Assembly: GCA_019058315.1 (NCBI GenBank)
Contig: JAHPZH010000001.1
Coordinates: 535,536-599,535, forward strand
DNA: 64,000 nucleotides
Direction: 5' to 3'
From: Candidatus Helarchaeota archaeon
Lineage (GTDB): Archaea > Asgardarchaeota > Lokiarchaeia > Helarchaeales > RDOG01
Shown: piece by piece, positions 24,766 to 38,495 of the stretch
Layout: every line of letters starts with the position of its first letter
How positions within the stretch are numbered: position 1 is the first letter of the stretch
Translations under genes and position numbers: made by a program
The notes under the pieces: generated by a model
What the model was told of the DNA's origin: nothing
Databases searched by the model: none
What the model saw: only the letters and a program-made list of their open reading frames with translations

Positions 24766-24856
24766 TTTGTTTAAAACTGATTTTTTATATCAAATATTTA
24801 AAATTTATTAGATTTAAAGTAGTTTTAAATGTAAAAGAAAATGAGGTAGAATTTAA

Positions 24857-25546
24857 TTGGCAAGTCCTTTTCGTGTTTATGAAAATATCTATTGTATTGG
24901 AGGTGGCAGCATTTCAAGTGCCGGCGATTGCATGGTTTATCTTATTGATATGAAAAAAAATAACCTTGTTTTAATTGATTCTGGAGTAACAAATTTTAAT
25001 AGAATTGTAGATAATATTAAAACTCTAAATTTTGATCCAAATAATCTTACTGCCCATATTATAACACATTGCCATATAGATCACATTGGAAATTCTGCTC
25101 ATTTCAAGAAATCATTTAATTTAAAAGTCTATGCACATGAACTTGACGTAGAACCAATTGAAAAAGGCGGTTCAAAGACAGGAGCAAGTTTTTATGGAGT
25201 TAATTATGAACCTGTAGAAATCGATCAAAAGTTTACAACAAGAGAGGGAGAGGAGATTTTACATATTGGAGAATATGACCTTCATATTCTTCATATTCCT
25301 GGGCATACACCAGGGGGTATAGCACCCTATATTGATATCGGTGGAAAACGAGTCATTTTTGCTCAAGATGTTCATGGTCCGCTTTTTCCTGCATTCGGTT
25401 CAGATAGAAAACAATTTGTCAAGTCTTTAAAAAGAATGCAAGATTTAAATGCTGATATTCTTTGTGAAGGACATTTCGGAATATATGATAGTAAGGACAA
25501 AGTTAAAGAATATATTGGCAGCTACATTTCTCAATTCTCAAGATAA
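24857..25546 (+). CDS. Metallo-beta-lactamase fold hydrolase
   Basis: LIDSG, THCHIDHIG, PGHTPG, CEGH. Confidence 0.9.
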   Translation: MASPFRVYENIYCIGGGSISSAGDCMVYLIDMKKNNLVLIDSGVTNFNRIVDNIKTLNFDPNNLTAHIITHCHIDHIGNSAHFKKSFNLKVYAHELDVEPIEKGGSKTGASFYGVNYEPVEIDQKFTTREGEEILHIGEYDLHILHIPGHTPGGIAPYIDIGGKRVIFAQDVHGPLFPAFGSDRKQFVKSLKRMQDLNADILCEGHFGIYDSKDKVKEYIGSYISQFSR

Positions 25547-25667
25547 ATTATTTAATTTTTATTTCTTAAATAATATCATTTATATTATGGTCTGATTCAT
25601 TTAATAAAATAAATTGATAAGCTTCTTTTTGGAGTTCTATAATGAAATTAAATTGGATGTAAGATCT

Positions 25668-26402
25668 ATGGAAAAAAAATTTCAAATCATAATCGATAAG
25701 AGAGAACCAAAAAAAATTATTGATTTACTCAAACAAGAAGAAATTGAAGTTAAGACGCAAAATTTAGATGTAGGGGACTATATTATTTCTGATTCTTTGG
25801 CCGTCGAAAGAAAATCAGGTCGTGACCTAGTTTCTTCAATAACTCAAGATAGAAGAAATTTGTTTGAGCAATTGATGCGGCTCTCAGAAACATATGAACT
25901 ACCAATTCTACTAATTGAAAATTTAAAAGCTGCTTTTAAATCTCAAATGGATCCTGCATCCATCTATGGAGTTATCACCAGTATTGCACAAAGAAATCGA
26001 ATTCCTATCATTCCTACCCTTAATTATAAAGATACGGTATTAGCTCTAAAAAGAATGGTTATTAGGGAACAAAAAGAAGAGGAAGAGCCTTTTGTAATAG
26101 CAAGAAGAGCCCCAAAGACAATGTCACATGAAGAACGCCAAACTTTTTATTTGGAGGGACTTTATAATATAGGACCAAAACGTGCACAACAATTATTGGA
26201 CACCTTTACAACCCCAAATGGAGTTCATAAAGCGATAAAAAATACCAAAATATTATATACGAAAACTGGAAAAGTAAAAGGAATTGAGGGTGAACTATGT
26301 AAGGTCAAAGGCATCGGTCCCAATTTTGTTATAAAAAATAAAAAATTATTATTTAATATAGAAGTAAACAACTCAAAACTTCAAAAAAAATTAAAAAATT
26401 AG
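25668..26402 (+). CDS. xpf: ERCC4/XPF-family structure-specific nuclease with HhH motifs (short XPF)
   Basis: IIDKRE, LDVGDYI, VERKS..DL, LYNIGPKRA and VKGIGP HhH. Confidence 0.85.
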   Translation: MEKKFQIIIDKREPKKIIDLLKQEEIEVKTQNLDVGDYIISDSLAVERKSGRDLVSSITQDRRNLFEQLMRLSETYELPILLIENLKAAFKSQMDPASIYGVITSIAQRNRIPIIPTLNYKDTVLALKRMVIREQKEEEEPFVIARRAPKTMSHEERQTFYLEGLYNIGPKRAQQLLDTFTTPNGVHKAIKNTKILYTKTGKVKGIEGELCKVKGIGPNFVIKNKKLLFNIEVNNSKLQKKLKN

Positions 26403-26429
26403 CTAAAATCTAACAAATAGTATTAATAA

Positions 26430-27017
26430 TTAGTCTGATTTGGGTTTTGCTCGACGTTTTAAAATTTTAGGTTCCTTAACATATGGTGGACGGGGTTTGA
26501 AGTTTGGAGGCTTTGGTAGTCTGGCGACTATTCTCGCGGGATTTCCTGCGACCATAGTAAAGTCAGGGACATTTTTAGAAACTACACTACCACTTGCTAC
26601 AACAGCCCCTTCTCCTATAATGACTCCTCCTAAAATTGTTGATCTGATTCCAATCCATGCTTTTCTTTTTATTATTGTTGGTCTTGGGAACATCGGAGCC
26701 TGTGTTGGATATTGACCTTCTTTCATTCTCATTATTTCTTTTCCATGTGCCACAATAATAGTGTAAGCTGCTATTTGGGCCCCATCTTGAATAATTACTT
26801 GAGAAGGAAATTGATCTTCAATATAGACATTTCTACCAAGCCATACATTTTTACCGATTCTCACTCCTCGAGCTTTATTCAATCTTGCTCGTAAACCTCC
26901 TCCAGGAATGAAACTAGAAATAATATTTACAAAACGAGAAAGTAAATGCCCTAATTTGCTTCTTTTCCTTCTCAATTTTTTTGAAAGTTTTGAATGATAT
27001 AGATCCCTTTTAGACAA
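26430..27017 (-). CDS. Hexapeptide-repeat (left-handed beta-helix) acyltransferase, WbeO/WcaF-like
   Basis: GVRIGKNVWLG, AWIGIRSTILGGVIIGEGAVVASGSVVSKNVPDFTMVAGNPARIV. Confidence 0.88.
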   Translation of the reverse strand: MSKRDLYHSKLSKKLRRKRSKLGHLLSRFVNIISSFIPGGGLRARLNKARGVRIGKNVWLGRNVYIEDQFPSQVIIQDGAQIAAYTIIVAHGKEIMRMKEGQYPTQAPMFPRPTIIKRKAWIGIRSTILGGVIIGEGAVVASGSVVSKNVPDFTMVAGNPARIVARLPKPPNFKPRPPYVKEPKILKRRAKPKSD

Positions 27018-27034
27018 ATTGAATCACAATAATT

Positions 27035-27829
27035 CTAATTCTTATTTATTCTTTTAGCAATTGCTATAATATAATTGTCTTCCTTTATTATTTTTATAAA
27101 ATAAATTTCCATTTTGTTCTGATTATTAATATTTACGAAGATTTTATTATTTCTTATAAAAATATGCGTTTTACGAAAATCTAATTTTAATCCAAGACCA
27201 GAAGCTTTAGAAACTGCTTCTTTTATACACCAAAAAGTAGTGCAAATTTCACTTTCAGAAGATTTTAAAGCTCTATAATTAGTAAAACATTTGAAAATTT
27301 TTAAAAAATCCTTAATCGTCAAGATTTTCTTTATTAAACTAGGTGAAAAATTCCTAATTTTCTCGATATCAACACCTATTTGATCAAAACTGGCAATAGC
27401 TACAATTTTATCTTGAGAATGTGAGATTGAAAAATTTATTTCTTTAATGTTTAATATTCCAGAAATGTTTAATACTGGTTTATTTGGAGAATTATTCAAA
27501 ATTTCAATTTCATTATAGGGATAATAACTCAAATTTGAATATTTTAACAATTTTATTATTGAGATCTTTGCCAATATCCTACCATATAACCAAGAAAATT
27601 TCTTTTTCTTATTTAAATATTCATTAACTTCCCGATTTGTAAAAAAATTTTTGAAAAATTCCTGATTTTCTAAATGTGAGAGATAAACATCTTCTTTCTT
27701 ACTAAGAGAAATTAATAAAATAACTAATTCTCCATCTATTACGAAAATAACTTCTTTAAAGTCAAATAGATGAATTAATCTAGAATTTAATTGATTGAAA
27801 TTTGAAATTTGGCCTCCAAGGTCTAACAA
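27035..27829 (-). CDS. 4'-phosphopantetheinyl transferase (Sfp type)
   Basis: GRILAK, NKP, FSISHS, IGVDIE, FWCIKEAVSKASGLGL; start uncertain. Confidence 0.88.
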   Translation of the reverse strand: MLDLGGQISNFNQLNSRLIHLFDFKEVIFVIDGELVILLISLSKKEDVYLSHLENQEFFKNFFTNREVNEYLNKKKKFSWLYGRILAKISIIKLLKYSNLSYYPYNEIEILNNSPNKPVLNISGILNIKEINFSISHSQDKIVAIASFDQIGVDIEKIRNFSPSLIKKILTIKDFLKIFKCFTNYRALKSSESEICTTFWCIKEAVSKASGLGLKLDFRKTHIFIRNNKIFVNINNQNKMEIYFIKIIKEDNYIIAIAKRINKN

Positions 27830-27906
27830 AAAATATCTCCAACATTAAAATTTATATTTATTCAAAAAATAGAGATCTATTTATATTAATTTATAAGGTT
27901 GAAATT

Positions 27907-28311
27907 ATGAATATAGAAATTGGAAAAACAGCGGAATTTTCAAAAACAATCACTGAAGATGACGTAAAGAAAATGGTAGTAATTTCTGGGGATGATAATC
28001 CAATTCATCTCGACGAGGAATTTGCAAAAAGAACTATATATAGAGGAAGAATAGCACATGGTCTACTCTCGTTGGGTTTGGTCTCCGCAGCATTGACTAA
28101 ACTTTTTGGACCAGGAAATATTTGGTTGAATCAAACTTTTTCTTTTACAAAACCGATTCACATTGGAGATACACTAAAAGCAAAATTAAAAATCATCTCT
28201 ATAGATAAAAGAAAAGTTTGTACTGTGGAAACTTTGGTTTATAATCAAAATGATGAATTAGTTTTAGATGGTAAAGCTGAATCAAAAGTTGCTTATATTA
28301 AAAAAAAGTGA
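27907..28311 (+). CDS. MaoC-like (hotdog) enoyl-thioester hydratase/dehydratase
   Basis: SGDDNPIHLDEEFA, GRIAHG, FTKPIHIGDTL; ATG 27907 preferred. Confidence 0.9.
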   Translation: MNIEIGKTAEFSKTITEDDVKKMVVISGDDNPIHLDEEFAKRTIYRGRIAHGLLSLGLVSAALTKLFGPGNIWLNQTFSFTKPIHIGDTLKAKLKIISIDKRKVCTVETLVYNQNDELVLDGKAESKVAYIKKK

Positions 28312-28396
28312 AAAAGTCTTGAACCATTAAAAAAAAATAGTTTGAATAACCTTTAATTACAAAATATTTAGAAAATATCATATAACTGCTTGATAG

Positions 28397-28648
28397 TTGA
28401 TTAAAGTCATGGTTAACTTGGAAAAATTCTTGGAGTATGTCTCCGAAGTATTCGAAATAGATCAGTCAGAAATATCTGATGAGCTAACTCCTGATGATAT
28501 TGAAGTTTGGGATTCCATTTCTCATATGGACTTAATGGCAAAATTCGAAGAAGAGTGGGGAGTTACATTTGATGTAGAGGAACTAACGGAAATGGAAACA
28601 ATCGGCCTTATTAAGAAAGCTTTGATCCGTCACGGAGTTGAATTATGA
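28397..28648 (+). CDS. Acyl carrier protein
   Basis: Acidic ~80 aa; WDSISHMDL phosphopantetheine Ser; FEEEWGVTF. Alternative ATG at 28409. Confidence 0.88.
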   Translation: MIKVMVNLEKFLEYVSEVFEIDQSEISDELTPDDIEVWDSISHMDLMAKFEEEWGVTFDVEELTEMETIGLIKKALIRHGVEL

Positions 28649-30156
28649 ATTTAACAGAAGAACTTTTTAAAAATTCATATAAATTAGATAAGATAGCGTT
28701 TTTTCATAGAGATGAGACTATCTCCTATCCCGATTTATATGGTAAAATATGTGCTGTCATAGAAGAACTTAGAAATCAAGGGTGTAAGAAAGGAGATAAA
28801 ATAGCAATATTTGCAAATAATTCAATATTCACAGTTATTGCATATTTTGGGATTATTGGAAATGGTAATGTTGCAATTCCTCTTTATCCGAGAATCTCAG
28901 AAGAGCATTTGAATTATATTATTAAGGGTTGCAAAGTAAAAACGCTCTTCATTCAAACTAAACTTCTAAAACGCTTTAAAGAGCGATGTAAAACTAAGAT
29001 GGAAAATTACTTTTTTGATGTTGAAAGTGAATCTGGAATAAATATCAGTACTTTACCAAAAAAGAAAACAAAATTTCCAGAAATTGAAGAAAAAAAGGAA
29101 ACCGCAGTAATAGTATTTACATCAGGGTCAACTGGAGTTCCCAAAGGTGTAATGGTATCTCATCATAACATTAATTATAATGCAGATTCAATAATAGAGT
29201 ATTTAAAACTCACAGATAAGGATAGATTTATGGAAGTATTACCTTTTTCTTATTGTTATGGAACATCATGGCTCCATACACATATGAAAGTGGGTGGACA
29301 ATTAGTTATTAATAATCGTTTTATGTTTCCAGGTAAGGTGTTAGACGAAATTAATGAAAAAGAATGTACGGGTTTTGGGGGAGTACCTGCACATTTTCAA
29401 ATTTTATTGAGAAGATCAAATATACATAAAAGAAAATTTCCTTCTTTGAGGTTTATTGCTCAAGCAGGGGGTAAATTGGCAGTTCCTTTTATTAAAGAAT
29501 TAATGGAACTATTTCCAGATAAACAAATTTTTATTATGTATGGTCAAACAGAAGCAACTGCTCGGTTATCTTATTTACCACCTCAATTATTAGAAAAAAA
29601 ATTAGGATCAATAGGTAAGGGTATTCCTGGAGTCAATCTTGAAGTTTTAAAAAAAGATGGAACTCCAATAAAACCTGGTGAAGTTGGTGAAATTTTGGCA
29701 GAAGGTGGTAATATCATGCAAGGGTATTGGAATGATCCCGAAGGAACAAAAAAAACTCTTAAAAATGGGAAGTTATGTACAGGAGATCTTGCAACGATTG
29801 ATGAGGAAGGCTTTCTATTTCTAGTTGATCGAGAAAAAAATATAATTAAGAGTGGTGGCTATCGAGTTTCACCTCAAGAAATTGAAAATGTAATCTTTCA
29901 AATTCCAAATGTTATTGAAGCGGCAGTCATTGGAGTGCCAGACGAAATTTTAGGCGAAGCAATTAAAGCGTTTGTTGTAACTGTTAAAGACGCTAAAGGT
30001 TTAATAGATAAAGATTATATTATAAAATATTGCAGAAAGCAATTACCATCTCATAAAATCCCAAGATATGTGGAATTTATAAAAAATCTACCAAAGAGTA
30101 GTTCAAATAAAGTTATGTATGAAGTTTTAAAGAAACAAGAAAGGGAGAAAAAATGA
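28645..30156 (+). CDS. AMP-dependent (ANL) acyl-CoA/acyl-ACP ligase, WbeL-like
   Basis: FTSGSTGVPKGV, AQAGG, MYGQTEATARL, TGDL, DREKNIIKSGGYRVSP, LPKSSSNK; ATGA overlap with the ACP gene. Confidence 0.92.
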   Translation: MNLTEELFKNSYKLDKIAFFHRDETISYPDLYGKICAVIEELRNQGCKKGDKIAIFANNSIFTVIAYFGIIGNGNVAIPLYPRISEEHLNYIIKGCKVKTLFIQTKLLKRFKERCKTKMENYFFDVESESGINISTLPKKKTKFPEIEEKKETAVIVFTSGSTGVPKGVMVSHHNINYNADSIIEYLKLTDKDRFMEVLPFSYCYGTSWLHTHMKVGGQLVINNRFMFPGKVLDEINEKECTGFGGVPAHFQILLRRSNIHKRKFPSLRFIAQAGGKLAVPFIKELMELFPDKQIFIMYGQTEATARLSYLPPQLLEKKLGSIGKGIPGVNLEVLKKDGTPIKPGEVGEILAEGGNIMQGYWNDPEGTKKTLKNGKLCTGDLATIDEEGFLFLVDREKNIIKSGGYRVSPQEIENVIFQIPNVIEAAVIGVPDEILGEAIKAFVVTVKDAKGLIDKDYIIKYCRKQLPSHKIPRYVEFIKNLPKSSSNKVMYEVLKKQEREKK

Positions 30157-31232
30157 TAAAAAAGAATATAATGATCCCACATATTTACTATGTAAATGAA
30201 CTTTTTATGGGAAAAGGAGCTCTTTCAACTTTAAAAAATATAGAAGAAGATAAATTTTTAATTTTCGTTTCAAAAACGGTAAAGGGTTTGGAAAATTATC
30301 AAAAAATAGAGAAATATTTGGATGGAAAAACTTATACTGAAGAAATTATTGAAGATTGTTATGAAAAAAGGATATTGGAACTTAGAGATAAGTATAAAGA
30401 TTATAATCTTGACATACTTGTAGCTATAGGAGGAGGTAAAGTTATAGATTCTGCAAAAATTGTGAAATTTCTAATAGAAAATCCTGCTCATGATTTGGAA
30501 ACCCTTAAAAAAGAATATTTTAATTATAATAAAAAAATTAAACTTGTTGCTGTCCCAACAACACCTTCTACTGGTTCAGAATCTAATTCTACTGCTTTGA
30601 CAAAAACAGAACAAAATGAAAAAATTGCATATATAAATCGTTCTTTCATCCCGGATATGGCAATTTTAGACTATGCATTTTTGGAATCGATTCCATTGGA
30701 TAAACTTATTCCGATGACTGGGGATATTTTTGGGCATTCTTTTGAAGCTTTTTTCTCCAAGTTAAGTAAACAACTAATTATCATATATGCAAAATCGAGT
30801 ATGAACTTTTTAAAAAAAGGTATTCTGGGACTTAAAAAGAATAAAGAAGATAAAAAAAGTCTTGAAAGTATTATGGTGGCAGGACATGTCGGAGGAATAG
30901 CTGCAGGTAATGCATTTGTAGGTGCTTGTCATGCCCTTGCTCACGCTGCAGAAATAAAGATTAACAAAGGACATAGCAGTCTTATTATGAACCTAATAAA
31001 ACCAACCCTTACTTGGCATCAGAAAAAAACAGAAAATCCAGATTATGAACAATTTATAACCGCTTATAATGAGATTGGTTATGATGAATATTTAGAACCA
31101 AGAATTTTTGATACTCTTGATAATGACTGGTGGGCAGAAACAGCTCTTAAAGATCCAGCTGTTAAAACCAATCCTATCAGAATGAAATTGGAATCCATGC
31201 TGGAGTTGGTTAAATGGATCAAGACCAAATAA
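30153..31232 (+). CDS. Iron-containing alcohol dehydrogenase, WbeM-like
   Basis: AIGGGKVIDSAK, VPTTPSTGSE, DIFGHSFE, CHALAH, GH metal ligands; ATGA overlap. Confidence 0.9.
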   Translation: MIKKNIMIPHIYYVNELFMGKGALSTLKNIEEDKFLIFVSKTVKGLENYQKIEKYLDGKTYTEEIIEDCYEKRILELRDKYKDYNLDILVAIGGGKVIDSAKIVKFLIENPAHDLETLKKEYFNYNKKIKLVAVPTTPSTGSESNSTALTKTEQNEKIAYINRSFIPDMAILDYAFLESIPLDKLIPMTGDIFGHSFEAFFSKLSKQLIIIYAKSSMNFLKKGILGLKKNKEDKKSLESIMVAGHVGGIAAGNAFVGACHALAHAAEIKINKGHSSLIMNLIKPTLTWHQKKTENPDYEQFITAYNEIGYDEYLEPRIFDTLDNDWWAETALKDPAVKTNPIRMKLESMLELVKWIKTK

Positions 31233-32329
31233 TAAAAGATATTATAACAGCTGACCAATATAATCTTGCTCAAAAAGAGAAAGAAGCTAAATTACTGCCA
31301 ATTTTTAAAGAACAAATATTAAAACAAATTGAGAGTCTAGATAATTTAAAATCTTTTTATAAAAAATTTAATGTAAGTATTGATAATGTAAATTCATTAA
31401 ATGAGTTACCACCTATTCCAGTAAATATGTTTAAAAAATTTGATTTGAGAACATGTAAAAAGGAAGATACCTTAAGGATTTTACATTCCAGTTCCACAAC
31501 AACCGGAATTCCAAGTAAAATTTATATTGATAAAAAAACTGCTTTTCGTCAGACTCGTTCATTCCTCTCTACAATTAAGAATTTTATTGGAAAAGAAAGA
31601 AGACCATTATTAATTATTGATACGGAAGAAGTCGATAAGGCTGGATCTGACACATTAACCGCAAGAGGTGCTGCAATTCGTGCAATTGCTAACTTTGCAA
31701 CTAAAAAAGTCTATGTAATGGATTTGGAAAATGGAGATCTTGAAATAAATTTTGATAGACTCAAAAATTTTTGTGATAATTTCGAAGGACAAGACATAAT
31801 AGTCTATGGTTTTACTTATATCATCTGGAGTCGATTTTATAAAATTTTAAAAGAAAAAAATCTTCAGTTAAATTTCCCAAATATTAAAATTCTTCATAGT
31901 GGTGGTTGGAAAAAATTAATTGAACAACAAGTTGATAAAGAAACATTCAATTCTGAAATCGCTAGCATTTTTAATACAAGTCCAAAAAATGTCATTGATT
32001 ATTATGGAATGGTTGAACAAGTAGGGGTTGTTTTTGTTGATTGCGAGGAAGGCTGGAAACATGTTCCTGATTTTGCTGAGGTTATAATAAGAGATTTCTA
32101 TACCATGAATGAAAATGAACCAAAAAAACCTGGGCTAATCGAAGTTATGAGTATATTACCAACAAGCTATCCAGGACAAGCTTTATTAACGGAAGATGTT
32201 GGTGAAATTATTGGCATAGATGATTGTGCATGCGGAAGAAAAGGGAAATATTTTACTTTTAGATCTAGAGTCCGAAAAGCAGAATTAAGAGGATGTGGAG
32301 ATACTTTTGCTGAAAGGAGGGGAGATTAA
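31214..32329 (+). CDS. luxE: LuxE-like acyl-protein synthetase
   Basis: LPPIPVNMFK, HSSSTTTGIPSKI, HSGGWKK, DYYGMVEQ, SYPGQALLTEDVG, terminal ELRGC (acylated Cys). Confidence 0.88.
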   Translation: MDQDQIIKDIITADQYNLAQKEKEAKLLPIFKEQILKQIESLDNLKSFYKKFNVSIDNVNSLNELPPIPVNMFKKFDLRTCKKEDTLRILHSSSTTTGIPSKIYIDKKTAFRQTRSFLSTIKNFIGKERRPLLIIDTEEVDKAGSDTLTARGAAIRAIANFATKKVYVMDLENGDLEINFDRLKNFCDNFEGQDIIVYGFTYIIWSRFYKILKEKNLQLNFPNIKILHSGGWKKLIEQQVDKETFNSEIASIFNTSPKNVIDYYGMVEQVGVVFVDCEEGWKHVPDFAEVIIRDFYTMNENEPKKPGLIEVMSILPTSYPGQALLTEDVGEIIGIDDCACGRKGKYFTFRSRVRKAELRGCGDTFAERRGD

Positions 32330-32340
32330 TTATTCAAGTC

Positions 32341-33627
32341 TTGTTCTTTAAAAATAAAATATACAAATTAAATGAAAAAAATGTTAGTGATTTAAAAGAA
32401 ATTAGGTCTGAAATTGAAAAGAGCAGGGAAATTTTTAAAAATATCACTACTGAAAAAATTATTGACCTTTTTCACCAATTTGGTAGAGAATTACTCCATA
32501 ATAAGGAATTTATATCATTCGAAGGGGTTCCATTTCTCTCTAATTGGCTTAGGAAAGGTAATATTGAAAAAATTGTACTTAAGAATTTAGGTTCTTTTGA
32601 AGTTCTAAAAGATTTCATTGGTGAAGGGCGGAAAAAGGTAAAGGCTCAACCGAGGGGTGTTATTTGCCAGTGGATTGCTGGAAATGTCCCTACTCTGGGA
32701 TTTTTCTCATTAATTCAGTCTATTTTAGTTGGAAATTCAAATATAGTTAAAATCCCACCTGCAAGTCAATTTATTTTTCTTGAATTAATTAAACTATTTA
32801 GAAAAACTGAAATAGAAGGACTAAAAGGGTCTGATATTTTAAAAACAGTAGCAGTTATTGATTTTTTACCCTCAGATACAAAATCCAACTTAAATTTTTC
32901 ATTAAGTGCTGATGCAAGAGTAATCTGGGGGGGTCAAGAAGCAGTAGATGCTATTTCAAAAACAACAAAAATGACTCATTGTGAAGATATTGTTTTTGGT
33001 CCAAAGTATTCTTTTGGTATAGTGGATAAAAAAGCACAAGAATCTGAAGAGCTTTCTAAATTAATCCGTCGATTCGTTAATGATATTATAATTTTTGATC
33101 AAGGCGCATGTTCATCACCACAGGTTATCTTTTTTGAAAAAGGAGATCTTAGTTTAGAATCAATTGGGCAATTATTCGAAGAAGAATTTAAATTAGCATC
33201 CGAACGCTTCCCAAAAAATGGAATAGATCAGTTTATAGCGTCAAAAATAATTAATATCAGAGCAGAATATGCTCTTTCTCCAGAAAAGAAAATGCTTGCT
33301 TCCAAAGAGAATGATTGGACAATATTAATGGATAATAATATCAGATTAGAAGAACCTGTCCAATCACGGACTATTTTTTTAAAACAAGTAGAATCTGTCA
33401 TGGATTGTGTTAATTTAATTACTCCAAGAATTCAAACTATCGGCACAGCCATTTATGATAGAAATAAATTATTAGAATTTACTGATGCTGTGACATATAA
33501 AGGGGTGGCAAGATGCGTTTTACCAGGTCAAATGAATTTTTATGATTCTCCGTGGGATGGGATTTATTTCTTAAACCGATTAGTAAGATGGGTAACTTTA
33601 TATATGCCGGCAGATGAAAAACTTTAA
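32341..33627 (+). CDS. luxC: LuxC-like acyl-CoA/acyl-protein reductase
   Basis: PRGVICQWIAGNVP, IWGGQEAV, FGPKYS, FDQGACSSPQ (catalytic Cys), PWDGIYFLNRLVRW. Confidence 0.9.
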   Translation: MFFKNKIYKLNEKNVSDLKEIRSEIEKSREIFKNITTEKIIDLFHQFGRELLHNKEFISFEGVPFLSNWLRKGNIEKIVLKNLGSFEVLKDFIGEGRKKVKAQPRGVICQWIAGNVPTLGFFSLIQSILVGNSNIVKIPPASQFIFLELIKLFRKTEIEGLKGSDILKTVAVIDFLPSDTKSNLNFSLSADARVIWGGQEAVDAISKTTKMTHCEDIVFGPKYSFGIVDKKAQESEELSKLIRRFVNDIIIFDQGACSSPQVIFFEKGDLSLESIGQLFEEEFKLASERFPKNGIDQFIASKIINIRAEYALSPEKKMLASKENDWTILMDNNIRLEEPVQSRTIFLKQVESVMDCVNLITPRIQTIGTAIYDRNKLLEFTDAVTYKGVARCVLPGQMNFYDSPWDGIYFLNRLVRWVTLYMPADEKL

Positions 33628-33647
33628 AATAAATAAGAGTTTGAATT

Positions 33648-34466
33648 ATGTCATCTTCTATATCTATCGGAAATCATTGGAAAATTGTTCTTTATAGCAC
33701 ATTATTTAACTTTTTATTTGAATACGCAGTTCGTGGTTTTGATAACACATTGGAAATTCCCATACTGCTTTTTGGAATTATAGGTATATATTTCACCTAT
33801 TTTATCTTATTAGAAGATCTGATTGTAAGGTTTAGACTTAAGGATTATGAGCTCTTTTTGATCGCATTTTTTTACTGCCTTATCGGGATGGTGCTTAATT
33901 CAGGTTATATTTTTTGGGAACCAGGTCCATTCCAACCAAATTACTTAATTTTTGGAGTTAATTATTTGGTAATTATTTTTGTATGTATCTTTTGGTGGTC
34001 TGAATTTCAAACTGTACTTACTTTTTACTTTGCAAATAGAATTTCACCAAGAGATTGGGATCAACCATTTCTTGGTAGAAAAGGATGGATATTAACCTTA
34101 TTTCTAAATGCTCTATTTCTATCATTATTTTTTTTAAGTGGAAAGATAGTTTACGGGAGAATAGAAGGTTATATTTCAATGTTTATTATGTGGGTTGTAT
34201 TTGGAATTATTTGTTATATAATGTTAAAGAAGAAAGATCGAAATGAACCATTAAAATTTGAATCTTCGAAAATTCTTGATATTATTATGATATCTACTAT
34301 TATTTTATCGATTTTTAATGCTATTTTTCTTATTAAGGACCCTGTTATTATTGGAGCATCTCATGTAAATAGTCTTGCATTAAGAATTACAATACTTTGG
34401 TCCTTATTGCTAGGTATTTTTGTAATTTTTTATCGTATTTTATCAAAAAAACCAATTTCGGTATGA
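33648..34466 (+). CDS. Integral membrane protein (~8 TM)
   Basis: Hydrophobic throughout; 20 bp after luxC on the same strand. Confidence 0.7.
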   Translation: MSSSISIGNHWKIVLYSTLFNFLFEYAVRGFDNTLEIPILLFGIIGIYFTYFILLEDLIVRFRLKDYELFLIAFFYCLIGMVLNSGYIFWEPGPFQPNYLIFGVNYLVIIFVCIFWWSEFQTVLTFYFANRISPRDWDQPFLGRKGWILTLFLNALFLSLFFLSGKIVYGRIEGYISMFIMWVVFGIICYIMLKKKDRNEPLKFESSKILDIIMISTIILSIFNAIFLIKDPVIIGASHVNSLALRITILWSLLLGIFVIFYRILSKKPISV

Positions 34467-34488
34467 TAAAACCGCTACTTCTATCTAA

Positions 34489-35319
34489 TTAGGTTTTGAG
34501 ACGCCTAAAATAGTCCAATATAGATAGATTATCTATATCACCTGATAAGCATACAATTGTTTCATCCTCTCCCTTCTTGTAAAATTTTGAAAATGCCTCT
34601 TTTAAGGATAAAATCATAAAATTCTTTTTTGCGTTTATACTTTTAATAAGTCCCTCTAATATTTTGATATATTTTATTTGACCCATTCTAATTGGATGCA
34701 GATCATAGACCAAGACACCAGTTTTACCAAAATCCAAGGCTTCTACAAAGCGTCTTAAAATCTCATTATTATTATTTAGTTTAAGATTATCAATAAGAAC
34801 ATCATCTGATACACCAATTAAAGGAAGTGTAGTAACTCCAGATTTATGTTTAATGGGATGTGGAGGTTCCTTCCAAGGTGGTTTTTGAATATTTATTGAA
34901 GAATCATAATTTATGCCTAATTTCTTTTCATATTCGAAAAATAAATCAGAATTCTTTTCAATTTGAGTTATTCCATAAGGTGCCCTAAAAATCCAAGGTT
35001 TTTGATTTAATTTTTGAAAAATTGAAATAGCATCTTTCATATCTTTAAAAGCTGCTTTTCTTCCAATCAGAGAATAATCCGGATGTAAATGTCCATGTGG
35101 ACCATAGTCATGATTACCAAAATGTGAGAAAAAGTTAGCTTGATTTTCAATTAAATAAGTTGAGATAAAATAAGTAAATTTTACATCATGTTTTTCAAAA
35201 ATTTTATTCATTCTTGATATTAAATTAACCATATTCTCAGAAAATAAACTCAAATAATTGGAAATTTTCTTTATTAATACAGGAATTTTATTTCTATAAG
35301 TTAAAATTCTTCTAAACAA
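34489..35319 (-). CDS. Polysaccharide deacetylase (NodB/CE4-like), apparently circularly permuted
   Basis: HGHLHPDY, FRAPY, YDSS and DLHP. The (S/T)xD(I/V)D-type motif (LSGDID) lies at the C-terminus rather than the N-terminus. Confidence 0.75.
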   Translation of the reverse strand: MFRRILTYRNKIPVLIKKISNYLSLFSENMVNLISRMNKIFEKHDVKFTYFISTYLIENQANFFSHFGNHDYGPHGHLHPDYSLIGRKAAFKDMKDAISIFQKLNQKPWIFRAPYGITQIEKNSDLFFEYEKKLGINYDSSINIQKPPWKEPPHPIKHKSGVTTLPLIGVSDDVLIDNLKLNNNNEILRRFVEALDFGKTGVLVYDLHPIRMGQIKYIKILEGLIKSINAKKNFMILSLKEAFSKFYKKGEDETIVCLSGDIDNLSILDYFRRLKT

Positions 35320-35481
35320 AGAATTATCACGCTCTAATTATAATCATAAAAAATTGAAAATTATTAAATCTTATTTTATTGAGTTTTACATATTGCCTAA
35401 AAATAAAGATAATTTAGACTCTTATTTAATTTGAATATAGGTAAATATAGTAATTTTTATAATATTTTTATGTGTCTTGGA

Positions 35482-37101
35482 ATGGAAAGTTTAAAATACT
35501 TAAAATTTGAACCAAGGGAGTATCAAACTATAGCTGTAGAGAAAGCTATAAATGAAATGGAAAATGGGAAAAGACTTTTATTAATTTTGCTTCCAACGGG
35601 GATGGGAAAAACTAAAGTGGGGGAACTGATAGTTTCAGAATATATATTAAAAGGAAAATTAAAAAAGCAAGATAAAATTTTATTTTTGGCTCCTGATAGA
35701 AAAATGAAACATCAACTTTATGAAGTTGCTAATCAAGATGGCCTTTCACACTTTGGAAATCTATTTATATTTCCTGAAGGAACAACTATTCCTCCAAAAA
35801 TAATTAGAAATCACTTTAAATTATCAAAATTTATTTTCTCTACGCCAGAACTTTTATTCAATGCCGTTTTTCCAAGAAATCCGCGCATGAGGAAGGTAAA
35901 CCTTGAAGATATGAAAAAGATTAAGCTGGTTATAATTGATGAGATTTTGGAAGTCCTCGCACAAAAATTTGGAAAAGAGAGGTTTCGAGTAAATTTAAGA
36001 TTTAGACCGCTCCTTGAAATATTGGGTGTATTCGATTCTAACTCAATGAATGTGTTTGTAGGATTAACTGCTACAATAAGCCAATATAAAAAACGAAAGA
36101 TATTGATTGAATTATTTGGAGGAAATGAAAAGGCTGCTGAGATAACTCCTACCCAAACTGATGACTTTAAAGAATATGCACCTGCAATTATTGTAAAAAA
36201 ATTTTATGCATTTGATGATTTCGTAAAAGGTGTTGATGTCTTATTCATGAGTCTGAATTCTAAATGTTTAAATATTTTACAACAAGCCCATAGGATTCTA
36301 ACCGGAGCACCTTTAGAAAGCGACCGCACCTTATTATTTGCTAATGAAATGTTAAAAAAACAAGATGTTGTAAAAGAACATTTTGAAAAACGAAAGCGAG
36401 GAGAGTTATTTGAAAAAGCAAGAGGCTATGCTGGAGCATATTTAGATCTAGTAGTTGCTAGGCAAATGCTATTCGAACATGGTCTGCCTACGTTATATAG
36501 ATTTATCCATTCAGTTAAGAATTCAATACTTCTTAAATCTGATGAATGGAATGACATTATTCAGCAATTACAAATCAGATGGGAAAGTCCTGAGGGCATA
36601 ATCACTAAAAAAGAAGAAAGATTAATAGAACTACTAAAGCGGAAAGTCGTTGAGGAGAAAAAACGTGGGATTGTATTTTGCAGATTTGTTCAAATGACTA
36701 AGAACCTTTATCGCCTTGCTGAAGCTGCAAATATTAAATCAACTTTTATTCACGGTCAAATGGATGGAATGAGCCAAAATAACCGAATTAATCAATTCAA
36801 AAAAGGTGAAGTGGACGTTTTATTTGCGTCAAAAAAATTGATTGAACGTGGAACGGATATTCCCCAAGCAGATTTTGCGATACATTTTGGAACTACAATG
36901 TCTGCTGAACGAAGGGAGCAGAGTATGGGGAGAATTAGATCTACCATGAAAAATTTAAAAGAAGATATTACTATTCTTTACCATGAAACCGCAGAACAAG
37001 CTAAATTTTCAAAAATGATAGAAGACTTCATGGAGAATGTGGAAAAAGTTAAGGTCGAAGGATGGACTATTTTTAAAGATGGAGATATCTCAGAAAAATA
37101 A
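35482..37101 (+). CDS. SF2 helicase, Hef/FANCM-like, divergent
   Basis: EPREYQ, LPTGMGKT, STPE, IIDEIL, GLTAT, IVFC, FKKGEVDVL, ERGTDIP, EQSMGR. Confidence 0.78.
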   Translation: MESLKYLKFEPREYQTIAVEKAINEMENGKRLLLILLPTGMGKTKVGELIVSEYILKGKLKKQDKILFLAPDRKMKHQLYEVANQDGLSHFGNLFIFPEGTTIPPKIIRNHFKLSKFIFSTPELLFNAVFPRNPRMRKVNLEDMKKIKLVIIDEILEVLAQKFGKERFRVNLRFRPLLEILGVFDSNSMNVFVGLTATISQYKKRKILIELFGGNEKAAEITPTQTDDFKEYAPAIIVKKFYAFDDFVKGVDVLFMSLNSKCLNILQQAHRILTGAPLESDRTLLFANEMLKKQDVVKEHFEKRKRGELFEKARGYAGAYLDLVVARQMLFEHGLPTLYRFIHSVKNSILLKSDEWNDIIQQLQIRWESPEGIITKKEERLIELLKRKVVEEKKRGIVFCRFVQMTKNLYRLAEAANIKSTFIHGQMDGMSQNNRINQFKKGEVDVLFASKKLIERGTDIPQADFAIHFGTTMSAERREQSMGRIRSTMKNLKEDITILYHETAEQAKFSKMIEDFMENVEKVKVEGWTIFKDGDISEK

Positions 37102-37958: not shown

Positions 37959-38495
37959 ATGGAGCCATCCTCTAAAAATCTTGAATTCTGGTTAAAACAG
38001 CTTGAAGATTCAGATCTTGATAAAAAAATGCAAGCTCTTGAACAATTAATTGAATTGAGAAATCCTGAAATCATGGATATCCTAATCGAAGTTGCGGAAA
38101 TAGAAAAAAATGAAACTCTTCGTATAAAAGCAATTCAAGCTCTTGGTAAATTAGATGTTTCTGACCCAACTGATATATTTAATGTTCTTAAAAAATTGCT
38201 AATTGGAGAAAATCCAAAAATAAGAAAAGCAGTTCTTCGAACTATAGTTGATTTAGGAGATATTAGTGCAATTAAATATCTAACAAAATATTATTATTCT
38301 GATCATAGTGTTGGGATAAAACCAGATGTTAGTAAAGCTCTGGAAGACCTTTCAAAAGTTTTAGACGAAATTAAAAAGGATAAAAAAGTAAAAAAATCAA
38401 ATATGACAACTATACAGAAAAAATTGCCTATAAAATCGACCAATAAAGAAAATGATATCGATTATCAAAAATATATTAAAAAATTTTTTGACTAA
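37959..38495 (+). CDS. HEAT repeat protein
   Basis: LRIKAIQALGKL, IRKAVLRTIVDLGD. Confidence 0.78.
   Translation: MEPSSKNLEFWLKQLEDSDLDKKMQALEQLIELRNPEIMDILIEVAEIEKNETLRIKAIQALGKLDVSDPTDIFNVLKKLLIGENPKIRKAVLRTIVDLGDISAIKYLTKYYYSDHSVGIKPDVSKALEDLSKVLDEIKKDKKVKKSNMTTIQKKLPIKSTNKENDIDYQKYIKKFFD

What the first reader, a model, noticed from the sequence alone, without database searches (positions are those of the whole stretch)
26430..35319. ACP-dependent LuxE/LuxC acyl-reduction cluster mirroring V. cholerae O1 wbeKLMNO: candidate archaeal glycan hydroxyacylation system
Seen: a tightly coupled operon MaoC, ACP, ANL ligase, Fe-ADH, LuxE, LuxC and a TM protein (ATGA overlaps at 28645 and 30153, overlap at 31214). 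A PPTase and a hexapeptide acyltransferase are divergent, and a CE4 deacetylase is convergent. Established: V. cholerae O1 rfbK/L/M/N/O (wbeK-O) encode an ACP, an adenylate-forming enzyme, an Fe-ADH, a LuxC/LuxE-like protein and an acyltransferase, proposed to make the 3-deoxy-L-glycero-tetronyl group on perosamine. Archaea generally lack ACP-based acyl metabolism. Inference: a dicarboxylate is loaded on ACP, its free carboxyl is reduced to an aldehyde (LuxE/C) and then an alcohol (Fe-ADH), possibly remodelled by MaoC, and transferred onto an amino sugar freed by the deacetylase. This would give hydroxyacyl-decorated surface glycans in a probable Asgard archaeon. No luxAB is present, so this is not bioluminescence.
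Basis: partly seen in the sequence, partly recalled or inferred. Interest (0 to 1): 0.9.

Follow-up and report, generated by a model that had tools for sequence, protein, structure and literature searches.

The report
Carrier-protein acyl-reduction cassette in Asgard archaeon
An Asgard (Helarchaeota-like) archaeon carries a complete gene kit that probably builds a small reduced hydroxy-acid on its own carrier protein and attaches it to an amino sugar; the kit resembles the never-solved "tetronate" genes of the cholera O1 antigen and has now been seen many times in this scan.

Summary
All ten genes carry the stated domains, the 4-nt and 19-nt overlaps exist, and the catalytic residues are intact. 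The ACP and the PPTase are each the only one of their kind in the 5.8-Mb genome. It is not a chimeric insert: GC is uniform, two other MAGs share the same flanks, and contigs from an independent study bridge both junctions.

The core ACP-ligase-LuxE-LuxC occurs in Asgard archaea, DPANN, methanogens, Thermoplasmata, several bacterial phyla and about 44 Clostridium species. The Fe-ADH-containing form described for V. cholerae wbeK-N is found in Asgard archaea, a Micrarchaeon and an Opitutus polysaccharide cluster. In other Asgard archaea (MK-D1, Lokiarchaeum, Thor, a Helarchaeote) the cassette lies among GT4, DegT, LbH transferase, PIG-L and ribophorin genes. Here it has moved away from the N-glycan island and keeps only an LbH transferase and a CE4-like gene.

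The glycan N-acylation reading is therefore supported by synteny, not by chemistry. The cassette is patchy: 12 of 400 Asgard species genomes have it.

New lead: the unassigned 304.127-Da linking sugar of MK-D1 N-glycans has the same mass as an amino-HexNAc carrying a dihydroxybutanoyl group.

This scan has already reported the same cassette in at least 11 other genomes, including Lokiarchaeum.

The parts
26430..27017 (-). Left-handed beta-helix (hexapeptide) acyltransferase, 195 aa. It is the proposed transferase that moves the finished acyl group to the acceptor.
   Evidence: Pfam Hexapep, 51 bits. The best solved relatives include nucleotide-sugar N-acetyltransferases (WxcM-like 4mzu, QdtC, WlbB-type 3mqg) alongside maltose/galactoside O-acetyltransferases. 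It is 81% identical and in the same position in L088. An LbH gene lies within 10 kb of the cassette in 7/10 Asgard and 11/16 other archaeal loci, and in 0/44 Clostridium loci.
27035..27829 (-). Sfp-type 4'-phosphopantetheinyl transferase, divergent from the operon. It primes the ACP.
   Evidence: Pfam ACPS 60.6 bits plus AASDHPPT_N. It is the only ACPS-family match in the genome. A PPTase also lies near the cassette in MK-D1, L. ossiferum, Thor, Helarchaeota, Methanoregula and Thermoplasmata loci.
27907..28311 (+). MaoC-type (R)-specific enoyl hydratase/dehydratase. The ORF is open from 27802, but the likely start is ATG 27907.
   Evidence: Pfam MaoC_dehydratas 77.5 bits. Start candidates are listed. 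The gene is conserved near the cassette in Loki, Thor, Heimdall and Helarchaeota loci and in a subset of Clostridium loci.
28397..28648 (+). Acyl carrier protein, 83 aa, with the Ser of a D-S-I motif at residue 40 (counted from the TTG at 28397).
   Evidence: Pfam PP-binding 26.7 bits, cut-off 20.8. Sequence. It is the only PP-binding match in the whole genome. Its stop overlaps the ligase start (ATGA).
28645..30156 (+). ANL (adenylate-forming) ligase, 503 aa. It is the proposed loader of a non-amino carboxylic acid onto the ACP.
   Evidence: Pfam AMP-binding 250 bits plus AMP-binding_C. It falls below every NCBIfam cut-off. The best solved relatives are a feruloyl/fatty-acyl-CoA synthase, MenE, malonyl-CoA synthetase and oxalate-CoA ligase. 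The position aligned to the A-domain F-D-x-S motif reads Y-C-Y-G, so the Asp that binds an alpha-amino group is missing. The gene is adjacent to the ACP gene in about 60 loci.
30153..31232 (+). Iron-containing alcohol dehydrogenase, 359 aa. It is the proposed aldehyde-to-alcohol reductase.
   Evidence: Pfam Fe-ADH 105 bits plus ADH_Fe_C. The GGG dinucleotide motif and the Asp and His positions align with those of 3zdr (my reading of the alignment). An Fe-ADH sits between ligase and LuxE only in Asgard loci, Micrarchaeia L065 and Opitutus L082.
31214..32329 (+). LuxE-type acyl-protein synthetase, 371 aa. It is the second ATP-dependent carboxylate activator.
   Evidence: Pfam LuxE 225 bits. The NCBIfam LuxE equivalog scores 72 bits against a cut-off of 550. 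Cys361 in the C-terminal R-G-C-G aligns with the Cys of K-G-C-S in P. phosphoreum LuxE, 7xc6_E.
32341..33627 (+). LuxC-type acyl-thioester reductase, 428 aa. It makes the aldehyde.
   Evidence: Pfam LuxC 248 bits. The NCBIfam LuxC equivalog scores 118 bits against a cut-off of 750. Cys257 is invariant in 15 homologues and aligns with the Cys of the D-Q-Q-A-C-F-S stretch of 7xc6_A. LuxE-LuxC fusions of 806-844 aa exist elsewhere.
33648..34466 (+). Multi-pass membrane protein of 272 aa, co-oriented and 20 nt after LuxC. Function unknown; membership in the system is doubtful.
   Evidence: No Pfam or NCBIfam family. There is a weak AF_0692-like lead. It is conserved after LuxC only in L087 (89%) and L088 (42%). 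Relatives elsewhere sit in unrelated contexts. One paralogue follows a DegT gene on contig C9.
34489..35319 (-). CE4-like (polysaccharide deacetylase family) protein, 276 aa, convergent. A possible sugar de-N-acetylase; membership is uncertain.
   Evidence: Pfam Polysacc_deac_1 33 bits, cut-off 23. H-x-x-x-H-P and R-x-P-Y motifs are present, but I could not recognise a canonical T-F-D-D (read by eye). It is conserved in L087 (87%) and L088 (68%) only. Thor and one Promethearchaeota locus carry a PIG-L deacetylase near the cassette instead.

Best explanation
This is a self-contained, carrier-protein-based pathway that tailors a short acyl side chain. It is the archaeal counterpart of the V. cholerae O1 wbeK-O type cassette.

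Proposed steps:
1. The Sfp-type PPTase converts the single ACP to its holo form.
2. The ANL ligase, translationally coupled to the ACP, adenylates a small non-amino carboxylic acid and thioesterifies it to the ACP. The acid is most plausibly a C4 dicarboxylate such as malate, fumarate or succinate.
3. MaoC hydrates or dehydrates the 2-enoyl/3-hydroxy position of the tethered acid.
4. LuxE activates the remaining free carboxylate with ATP and passes it through its C-terminal Cys361 to Cys257 of LuxC.
5. LuxC reduces it with NAD(P)H to an aldehyde.
6. The Fe-ADH reduces the aldehyde to a primary alcohol.
7. The hexapeptide (LbH) acyltransferase moves the finished hydroxyacyl group from the ACP onto the free amine of an amino sugar, which ends up in a surface or N-linked glycan.

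Shown here: the domain identities, intact catalytic residues, gene coupling, uniqueness of ACP and PPTase in the genome, co-conservation of the genes, and synteny with glycan genes in relatives.

Inferred: the substrate, the order of steps, the ACP as the donor for the LbH enzyme, and the acceptor.
For: - Domains and overlaps are confirmed.
- Catalytic Cys residues of LuxE and LuxC, the Fe-ADH metal ligands and the ACP Ser are present.
- ACP and PPTase are each the only copy in the genome and sit next to each other. There is no convincing ketosynthase, so the carrier serves this cassette and not fatty-acid synthesis.
- Two separate ATP-dependent carboxylate activators (ANL and LuxE) sit in one operon with one carrier. 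This is most simply explained by a substrate with two carboxyl groups.
- The ANL lacks the Asp that A-domains use to bind an alpha-amino group. Its nearest solved relatives include MenE, malonyl-CoA and oxalate-CoA ligases.
- ACP-ANL-(Fe-ADH)-LuxE-LuxC keeps the same order in about 60 loci.
- The Fe-ADH form occurs in Opitutus inside a polysaccharide cluster with GT1 x2, a PglD-like N-acyltransferase, DegT and a PglF-like dehydratase. There LuxE and LuxC are fused into 844 aa, as reported for wbeN (2478 nt).
- Asgard synteny: MK-D1 has GT4-ACP-ANL-FeADH-LuxE-LuxC together with PPTase, DUF354, LbH, MaoC and DegT. L. ossiferum has the same set. A Helarchaeote has DegT, ribophorin I, GT4 and UDP-sugar dehydrogenase nearby. 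Thor has PIG-L, LbH and methyltransferases.
- An LbH gene lies within 10 kb in 7/10 Asgard and 11/16 other archaeal loci, against 0/44 Clostridium loci.
- Papers place the same gene types in flagellin glycosylation islands of Aeromonas and Enterobacteriaceae.
Against: - In this genome and its two syntenic relatives the cassette lies between DNA-repair and proteasome genes. The only candidate glycan genes beside it are the LbH transferase and the CE4-like gene. The ribophorin/GT4/DUF354 island is on contig C5.
- No enzyme of this cassette type has been characterised biochemically in the papers I could read. wbeM's role is called unclear.
- The 44 Clostridium loci carry the same core beside a sigma-54 activator and 4-hydroxybutyryl-CoA-dehydratase-like genes, not glycan genes. 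The core is therefore not tied to glycans by necessity.
- The top NCBIfam hits of the ligase are fatty-acid-CoA ligase subfamilies, though below their cut-offs.
- The LbH enzyme resembles CoA-dependent acetyltransferases as closely as anything else.
Confidence: 0.6

Rival explanations
1. The chemistry on the carrier is the same, but the acceptor is not a glycan. The hydroxyacyl group is transferred to a lipid head group, a polyamine, a small metabolite or a protein, or is simply released.
For: In the window, L087 and L088 no glycosyltransferase, sugar aminotransferase or nucleotide-sugar gene lies near the cassette. A membrane protein of unknown function follows LuxC. The LbH enzyme is of the generic small acetyltransferase type.
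Against: Every other Asgard locus inspected in detail has glycan genes within 10 kb. LbH and DegT genes recur with the cassette across archaea and in Opitutus. The CE4-like and PIG-L neighbours belong to carbohydrate or GlcNAc deacetylase families.
Confidence: 0.17
2. A fatty aldehyde/fatty alcohol pathway. The ANL loads a fatty acid on the ACP, LuxE/LuxC reduce fatty acids to aldehydes as in the lux system, and the Fe-ADH makes fatty alcohols for wax, ether-lipid or signalling compounds.
For: LuxC and LuxE are the fatty-acid reductase of bioluminescent bacteria. The top NCBIfam ligase hits are long-chain fatty-acid-CoA ligase subfamilies. An ANL + ACP + LuxC-like reductase route from fatty acid to aldehyde exists in tambjamine synthesis.
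Against: LuxE and LuxC score far below the NCBIfam equivalog cut-offs (72 vs 550 and 118 vs 750 bits). Two activating enzymes would be redundant for a monocarboxylic acid. No luxD, luxAB or FAS genes were found. The cassette is in only 12 of 400 Asgard genomes, which does not fit a core lipid role. Its synteny is with glycan genes, not lipid genes.
Confidence: 0.08
3. A catabolic or fermentative module that reduces a dicarboxylate to a hydroxy acid for energy metabolism, as the Clostridium context suggests.
For: 40/44 Clostridium loci pair the core with a sigma-54 activator. 36/44 pair it with a 4-hydroxybutyryl-CoA-dehydratase-like gene, often with a CoA-transferase, aldehyde dehydrogenase and Fe-ADH. 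G000 encodes a 63%-identical homologue of that dehydratase-like protein elsewhere.
Against: None of these partner genes is near the cassette in any archaeal locus. The Asgard LuxE+LuxC sequences lie outside the strongly supported clade that holds Clostridium. A stoichiometric carrier protein with a dedicated PPTase and an LbH transferase points to biosynthesis.
Confidence: 0.07

Closest known systems
Vibrio cholerae O1 wbeK-wbeO (rfbK-O, VC0248-VC0252), the proposed synthesis of the 3-deoxy-L-glycero-tetronyl N-acyl group on perosamine
   Same: Same set of enzyme types in the same order: ACP, adenylate-forming ligase, Fe-ADH, LuxE plus LuxC, and a hexapeptide acyltransferase. Papers confirm wbeL (471 aa, tetronate synthesis), wbeM (Fe-ADH) and wbeN (2478-nt acyl-CoA reductase/acyl-protein synthetase).
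   Different: LuxE and LuxC are separate genes here. A MaoC hydratase and a dedicated Sfp-type PPTase are added. The transferase is divergent. The host is an archaeon, and the cassette is not inside a glycan locus in this genome. Sequence orthology to the V. cholerae proteins was not tested because the sequences could not be fetched.
Opitutus sp. polysaccharide cluster (locus L082)
   Same: ACP-ANL-Fe-ADH-LuxE/LuxC in the same order. It has an LbH (PglD-like) N-acyltransferase and a DegT aminotransferase in the same cluster.
   Different: LuxE and LuxC are fused (844 aa). It has an SDR and a KAS III instead of MaoC, and no PPTase nearby. Identity to the window proteins is 25-35%.
ACP / AMP-ligase / FabG / LuxE / LuxC genes of Aeromonas group II and Enterobacteriaceae flagellin glycosylation islands
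   Same: ACP, AMP-dependent ligase, LuxE and LuxC together inside a glycan-decoration locus. The authors suggest that an acyl or lipid component is added to the glycan.
   Different: Those islands have a 3-oxoacyl-ACP reductase and no Fe-ADH or MaoC. The target is a pseudaminic-acid-based flagellin glycan. Their chemistry is also unsolved.
LuxC-LuxE fatty acid reductase of luminous bacteria (PDB 7xc6)
   Same: Homologous folds. The acyl-accepting Cys of both proteins is conserved.
   Different: Identity is low (roughly a quarter by my reading). Scores are far below the equivalog cut-offs. There is no luxA, luxB or luxD. An ACP, a second ligase, an Fe-ADH and MaoC are present.
Clostridium sigma-54-linked ACP-ANL-LuxE-LuxC operons
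   Same: Same four-gene core at 40-60% identity, sometimes followed by MaoC.
   Different: No Fe-ADH inside the operon and no LbH transferase. The neighbours are a sigma-54 activator and 4-hydroxybutyrate-pathway-like genes. They form a separate, strongly supported clade.

Membership tests
WbeK-O-type ACP/LuxCE glycan acyl cassette | ACP gene immediately followed by an adenylate-forming ligase gene | tested here: met
   PP-binding and AMP-binding genes overlap by 4 nt.
WbeK-O-type ACP/LuxCE glycan acyl cassette | Fe-ADH between the ligase and the LuxE/LuxC genes | tested here: met
   Fe-ADH lies at 30153-31232 and overlaps both neighbours. wbeM is reported as an Fe-ADH.
WbeK-O-type ACP/LuxCE glycan acyl cassette | LuxE and LuxC domains present (fused in WbeN) | tested here: met
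   Both domains are present as adjacent separate genes. Fused forms exist in other organisms.
WbeK-O-type ACP/LuxCE glycan acyl cassette | Hexapeptide acyltransferase belonging to the cluster | tested here: met
   An LbH gene lies divergently at 26430-27017 and is conserved at 81% in L088. LbH genes recur with the cassette across archaea.
WbeK-O-type ACP/LuxCE glycan acyl cassette | Embedded in a glycan biosynthesis locus with amino-sugar genes | tested here: not met
   The window's flanks are ERCC4, MBL, GNAT, helicase and proteasome genes, and the glycan island is on contig C5. The feature is met in MK-D1, L. ossiferum, Thor and another Helarchaeote.
WbeK-O-type ACP/LuxCE glycan acyl cassette | Sequence orthology to VC0248-VC0252 | not tested
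The 'longer' search returned only unnamed fusions.
WbeK-O-type ACP/LuxCE glycan acyl cassette | Product is a hydroxyacyl group amide-linked to an amino sugar | not testable with these tools
   This needs biochemistry or glycan mass spectrometry/NMR.
Lux fatty-acid reductase (LuxCDE) | Scores above the NCBIfam LuxC and LuxE equivalog cut-offs | tested here: not met
   LuxE scores 72 bits against 550 and LuxC 118 bits against 750.
Lux fatty-acid reductase (LuxCDE) | Acyl-accepting cysteines of LuxE and LuxC | tested here: met
   Cys361 and Cys257 align with the corresponding cysteines of 7xc6.
Lux fatty-acid reductase (LuxCDE) | Companion luxD and luxAB genes | tested here: not met
   None was found among the 20 genes scanned around the cluster.
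Type II fatty-acid synthase ACP/AcpS | ACP above equivalog cut-offs, with ketosynthase genes in the genome | tested here: not met
   The ACP scores 22-27 bits against cut-offs of 66-84. There are only three marginal partial ketoacyl-synt matches, and the same family also matches all four archaeal control genomes.
NRPS-type amino-acid adenylation domain | Asp of the F-D-x-S motif that binds the alpha-amino group | tested here: not met
   The aligned position reads Y-C-Y-G (my reading of the LgrA alignment).
CE4 polysaccharide deacetylase | Pfam score above cut-off plus the catalytic motifs T-F-D-D, H-[ST]-x-x-H and R-x-P-Y | tested here: inconclusive
   The score is 33 bits against a cut-off of 23. 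H-G-H-L-H-P and R-A-P-Y are present. The expected T-F-D-D position seems to read L-F-S-E, judged by eye from a weak alignment.

The most novel reading that the evidence does not exclude
The Asgard cassette makes the four-carbon substituent of the still unassigned 304.127-Da linking sugar of Asgard N-glycans.

In MK-D1 the initiating GT4 phosphoglycosyl-transferase gene lies directly upstream of ACP-ANL-FeADH-LuxE-LuxC. DegT and an LbH transferase are close by.

The published residue C12H20N2O7, provisionally read as 'HexNAc + threonine', has the same mass as an amino-HexNAc N-acylated with a dihydroxybutanoyl group. That is the same acyl formula as the cholera tetronate. It also matches HexNAc carrying an amino-hydroxybutanoyl ester.

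If either is true, carrier-protein chemistry decorates the sugar that links glycans to proteins in cultured relatives of the eukaryotic ancestor, and the unsolved WbeK-O-type chemistry could be worked out in a cultured archaeon.
Probability: 0.2. Interest if true: 0.75.

Novelty: new variant of a known kind. Interest (0 to 1): 0.5.

Why it matters
- Carrier-protein (ACP) chemistry is almost absent from archaea. Here the only ACP and the only PPTase of a 5.8-Mb Asgard genome serve one small cassette. ACP genes in archaeal genomes therefore need not mean fatty-acid synthesis.
- The same cassette type sits in the cholera O1-antigen locus and in flagellin glycosylation islands, yet the papers I could read contain no biochemical characterisation of it. 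Two cultured Asgard archaea carry it, and one has published glycopeptide masses that are still unassigned. The question can now be tested directly.
- Against this, the cassette is a patchy accessory module shared with many bacteria and other archaea, so it says little about eukaryogenesis. This scan has already reported it repeatedly.

Tried and rejected
- **Chimeric bacterial insert: rejected.** GC is uniform. Flanks are identical in two other MAGs. Contigs of an independent study bridge 24800-26654 and 34295-35894.
- **Expression:** no RNA holder was listed for the stretch.
- **Direct comparison with V. cholerae WbeK-O:** not possible. The search for longer LuxC relatives returned only unnamed LuxE-LuxC fusions.
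- **ANL as an amino-acid-activating A domain** (which would allow threonine or aspartate loading): disfavoured, because the F-D-x-S Asp is missing.
- **TM272:** no family. Only a weak AF_0692 lead. Homologues in two other organisms sit in unrelated contexts. I left it as a doubtful member.
- **CE4 motif:** I first misread the A-T-F-F-like strand as motif 1. After correction the canonical Asp-Asp still could not be recognised.
- **MK-D1 supplementary tables** (to see whether the cassette proteins were detected): not held.
- **Literature searches** for Asgard plus LuxC/LuxE/ACP found no paper on this cassette in archaea.
- **AU test holding all Fe-ADH-type rows (Asgard + L065 + L082) together:** borderline (p 0.049), so nothing is claimed from it.
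- **Not run:** structure and complex prediction. An enzyme with its carrier is a poor case for the complex tool, and a fold would not reveal the substrate.

Full report
**1. What is there**

- a hexapeptide (LbH) acyltransferase and an Sfp-type PPTase on the minus strand
- MaoC, ACP, ANL ligase, Fe-ADH, LuxE, LuxC and a 272-aa multi-pass membrane protein on the plus strand
- a convergent CE4-like gene

The ACP/ligase and ligase/Fe-ADH junctions are ATGA overlaps. Fe-ADH and LuxE overlap by 19 nt. The apparent MaoC/PPTase overlap comes from taking the longest ORF. MaoC most likely starts at ATG 27907, giving 134 aa, as in relatives.

No protein reaches an NCBIfam equivalog cut-off. LuxE scores 72 bits against 550, LuxC 118 against 750, and the ACP at most 27 against 66. 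These are family members, not orthologues of the lux or FAS proteins.

**2. Are the enzymes intact?**

- LuxE Cys361, in the C-terminal R-G-C-G, aligns with the Cys near the C-terminus of P. phosphoreum LuxE.
- LuxC Cys257 is invariant in 15 homologues and aligns with the Cys of the D-Q-Q-A-C-F-S stretch of 7xc6 chain A.
- The Fe-ADH keeps the glycine-rich motif and the Asp and His positions that align with a solved ADH domain (my reading).
- The ACP has a D-S-I serine.
- The ligase position aligned to the A-domain F-D-x-S motif reads Y-C-Y-G. An alpha-amino acid substrate is therefore unlikely.
- The ligase's nearest solved relatives are a feruloyl/fatty-acyl-CoA synthase, MenE, malonyl-CoA synthetase and oxalate-CoA ligase. 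This does not fix the substrate.

**3. Is it native?**

- GC is a uniform 27-33% across the window.
- A Helarchaeota MAG whose LuxC is 70% identical (L088) has all ten genes in the same order between the same neighbours: HEAT, GNAT, MBL and ERCC4 on one side, helicase and proteasome alpha on the other. A 93% relative (L087) shares the downstream half.
- Contigs from an independent sediment study bridge the ERCC4/LbH junction and the membrane-protein/CE4/helicase junction.

The chimeric-insert objection is therefore rejected.

The genome is 5.8 Mb in 12 contigs and 94% complete. It falls in the same class as two genomes whose size, single contig and hit coordinates match MK-D1 and L. ossiferum. 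The nearest named proteins come from Helarchaeota/Hodarchaeota MAGs.

**4. A dedicated carrier**

The ACP is the only PP-binding match in the genome, and the PPTase is the only ACPS match. The ketoacyl-synthase family gives only three marginal partial matches. It also matches all four archaeal control genomes. The carrier therefore serves this cassette and not fatty-acid synthesis.

**5. Distribution**

- LuxC relatives at about 50% identity occur in Promethearchaeum syntrophicum MK-D1, Lokiarchaeum ossiferum, and Sigyn-, Hermod-, Thor-, Heimdall- and Sif-archaeal MAGs.
- A pattern scan of one genome per species returned 80 loci: 10 Asgard, 16 other archaea (DPANN, Methanoregula, Methanoculleus, Methanomassiliicoccaceae, Thermoplasmata, Halobacteria), 10 other bacteria and 44 Clostridium/Bacillota (grouped).
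- ACP-ANL-LuxE-LuxC keeps its order in about 60 of them.
- An Fe-ADH between ligase and LuxE is restricted to the Asgard loci, one Micrarchaeon and one Opitutus.
- Within the phylum the cassette is rare. LuxE is found in 12 of 400 species genomes, 10 of 85 genera and 3 of 90 high-quality genomes. It is absent from the representative genomes of the same family and order.
- A LuxE+LuxC tree puts Clostridium plus the non-Asgard archaea in a well-supported clade (SH-aLRT 99) that excludes all Asgard rows.
- Holding the 13 Asgard rows together gives a better likelihood than the free quick search and is not rejected (p-AU 0.745).

This pattern is consistent with one old acquisition followed by many losses, but it does not prove that history.

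**6. Context decides the reading**

- **MK-D1:** GT4 (polyprenyl-phosphate HexNAc-1-P transferase family)-ACP-ANL-FeADH-LuxE-LuxC. These are followed by an alpha/beta hydrolase, PPTase, DUF354, LbH transferase, MaoC and a DegT aminotransferase. L. ossiferum has the same set.
- **Another Helarchaeote (L083, LuxC 76%):** the cassette lies among DegT, ribophorin I, GT4, a second LbH gene and a UDP-sugar dehydrogenase.
- **Thor:** a PIG-L deacetylase, an LbH protein right after LuxC, a PPTase and methyltransferases.
- **Methanoregula:** LbH-PPTase-ACP-ANL-LuxE-LuxC in one direction.
- **Opitutus:** the Fe-ADH-type cassette, with LuxE and LuxC fused into 844 aa, sits in a typical polysaccharide cluster. 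That cluster has GT1 x2, asparagine synthase, a PglD-like N-acyltransferase, an SDR, a KAS III, DegT and a PglF-like dehydratase.
- **Counting:** an LbH gene lies within 10 kb in 7/10 Asgard and 11/16 other archaeal loci, but in 0/44 Clostridium loci. The Clostridium loci instead carry a sigma-54 activator (40/44) and a 4-hydroxybutyryl-CoA-dehydratase-like gene (36/44).

There are thus two context classes, and the window's cassette belongs by sequence and architecture to the glycan class. In this genome, however, the ribophorin I/DUF354/GT4/UDP-sugar dehydrogenase island is on contig C5. Only the LbH transferase and the CE4-like gene accompany the cassette.

**7. Comparison with the known system**

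Papers confirm the following for V. cholerae O1:
- The O antigen is perosamine N-acylated with tetronate.
- wbeL (VC0249, 471 aa, with a putative ATP-binding domain) is needed for it.
- wbeM (VC0250) is an iron-containing ADH whose role is called unclear.
- wbeN (VC0251, 2478 nt) is an acyl-CoA reductase/acyl-protein synthetase.

Aeromonas and Enterobacteriaceae flagellin glycosylation islands carry ACP, AMP-ligase, FabG, LuxE and LuxC, and their chemistry is also unknown.

The window's cassette has the same enzyme set and order. It differs in having LuxE and LuxC split and in adding MaoC and a PPTase. I could not fetch the V. cholerae sequences, so orthology is untested.

**8. Mechanism**

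The most economical logic is this. Two ATP-dependent carboxylate activators work on one carrier, so the substrate has two carboxyl groups. One is tethered to the ACP by the ANL. The other is activated by LuxE, reduced by LuxC to an aldehyde, and reduced by the Fe-ADH to an alcohol. MaoC adjusts a 2-enoyl/3-hydroxy position, for example fumaryl to malyl thioester. As background from my own knowledge, MaoC-family hydratases are known to act on dicarboxylic enoyl-CoA thioesters such as mesaconyl-CoA. The LbH enzyme then transfers the product to an amine.

The free amine could come from a DegT transamination (Loki-type loci) or from de-N-acetylation (CE4-like gene here, PIG-L in Thor). The CE4-like protein is weakly matched, though, and I could not recognise a canonical Asp-Asp motif.

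The 4-hydroxybutyrate-type neighbours in Clostridium are an independent hint of C4-dicarboxylate chemistry. All substrate statements are inference.

**9. A testable link**

Glycoproteomics of MK-D1 (Nakagawa et al. 2024, PMC11284389) found three linear N-glycans. They share a linking sugar of 304.127 Da, provisionally read as HexNAc plus threonine. Two further residues of 311.08 and 303.10 Da are unassigned.

My arithmetic gives these matches:
- C12H20N2O7 is also an amino-HexNAc residue plus a dihydroxybutanoyl group (C4H6O3, the tetronate formula).
- It is also a 6-deoxy-diamino sugar plus a trihydroxybutanoyl group.
- It is also HexNAc plus an amino-hydroxybutanoyl ester.
- 303.095 Da equals HexNAc plus succinyl.

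The gene for the enzyme family that installs linking sugars (GT4) is the first gene of the MK-D1 cassette operon.

Against the diamino-sugar version, the authors saw HexNAc fragments in glycans without a HexNAc residue. That fits a labile substituent on HexNAc better, although the 311 and 303 residues might be the source of those fragments. I put the link at about 0.2. Earlier notes of this scan do not seem to mention it.

**10. Doubtful parts**

The 272-aa membrane protein is conserved after LuxC only in the three syntenic genomes. It has no family. Its relatives in two other organisms sit in unrelated contexts. One paralogue follows a DegT gene on contig C9. I cannot assign it a role.

**11. 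Verdict**

The cassette is a variant of a known but biochemically unsolved kind. It is widespread outside Asgard archaea and rare within them. This scan has already reported it in at least 11 other genomes, including L. ossiferum.

Interest is moderate. It rests on the dedicated ACP/PPTase pair in an archaeon and on the fact that the question can now be tested in cultured Asgard archaea.

Noticed in passing
G000 contig C8, about 9.2-13.5 kb (locus L089:6263-10465, minus strand): A second, divergent LuxE (379 aa) and LuxC (553 aa) pair lies directly downstream of a FIST-domain protein. It has no ACP, ligase or Fe-ADH. It is only 23-30% identical to the window's pair.
   Followed up: partly
Loci L013-L081 (44 Clostridium/Bacillota genomes), e.g. 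L086:5280-20271: The ACP-ANL-LuxE-LuxC core is linked in 40/44 loci to a sigma-54 activator and in 36/44 to a 4-hydroxybutyryl-CoA-dehydratase-like (HpaB/AbfD family) gene. A CoA-transferase, aldehyde dehydrogenase and Fe-ADH are often present too. This looks like an undescribed sigma-54-regulated module, possibly for C4 acid metabolism.
   Followed up: partly
G000 contig C5, about 557-590 kb: A probable N-glycosylation island with homologues of ribophorin I, DUF354, GT4, two UDP-sugar dehydrogenases and an LbH transferase. It is separate from the cassette.
   Followed up: no
G000 contig C9 (locus L090:6826-9195): A DegT sugar aminotransferase is followed at once by a paralogue of the window's 272-aa membrane protein (24% identity) and a convergent NUDIX gene. 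A NUDIX gene also lies beside a relative of that membrane protein in locus L093.
   Followed up: partly
Published MK-D1 N-glycan masses (PMC11284389) and locus L004:3551-18447: The unassigned 303.10-Da terminal residue matches HexNAc plus succinyl (303.0954) within rounding. The 311.08-Da residue remains unexplained.
   Followed up: partly
G000 contig C5:1398069-1399526: A homologue, 63% identical, of the Clostridium 4-hydroxybutyryl-CoA-dehydratase-like protein is encoded far from the cassette.
   Followed up: no
window 21954-23333 and 37959-38495: HEAT-repeat proteins flank the region on both sides. They are conserved in the same positions in the Helarchaeota relatives L087 and L088.
   Followed up: no
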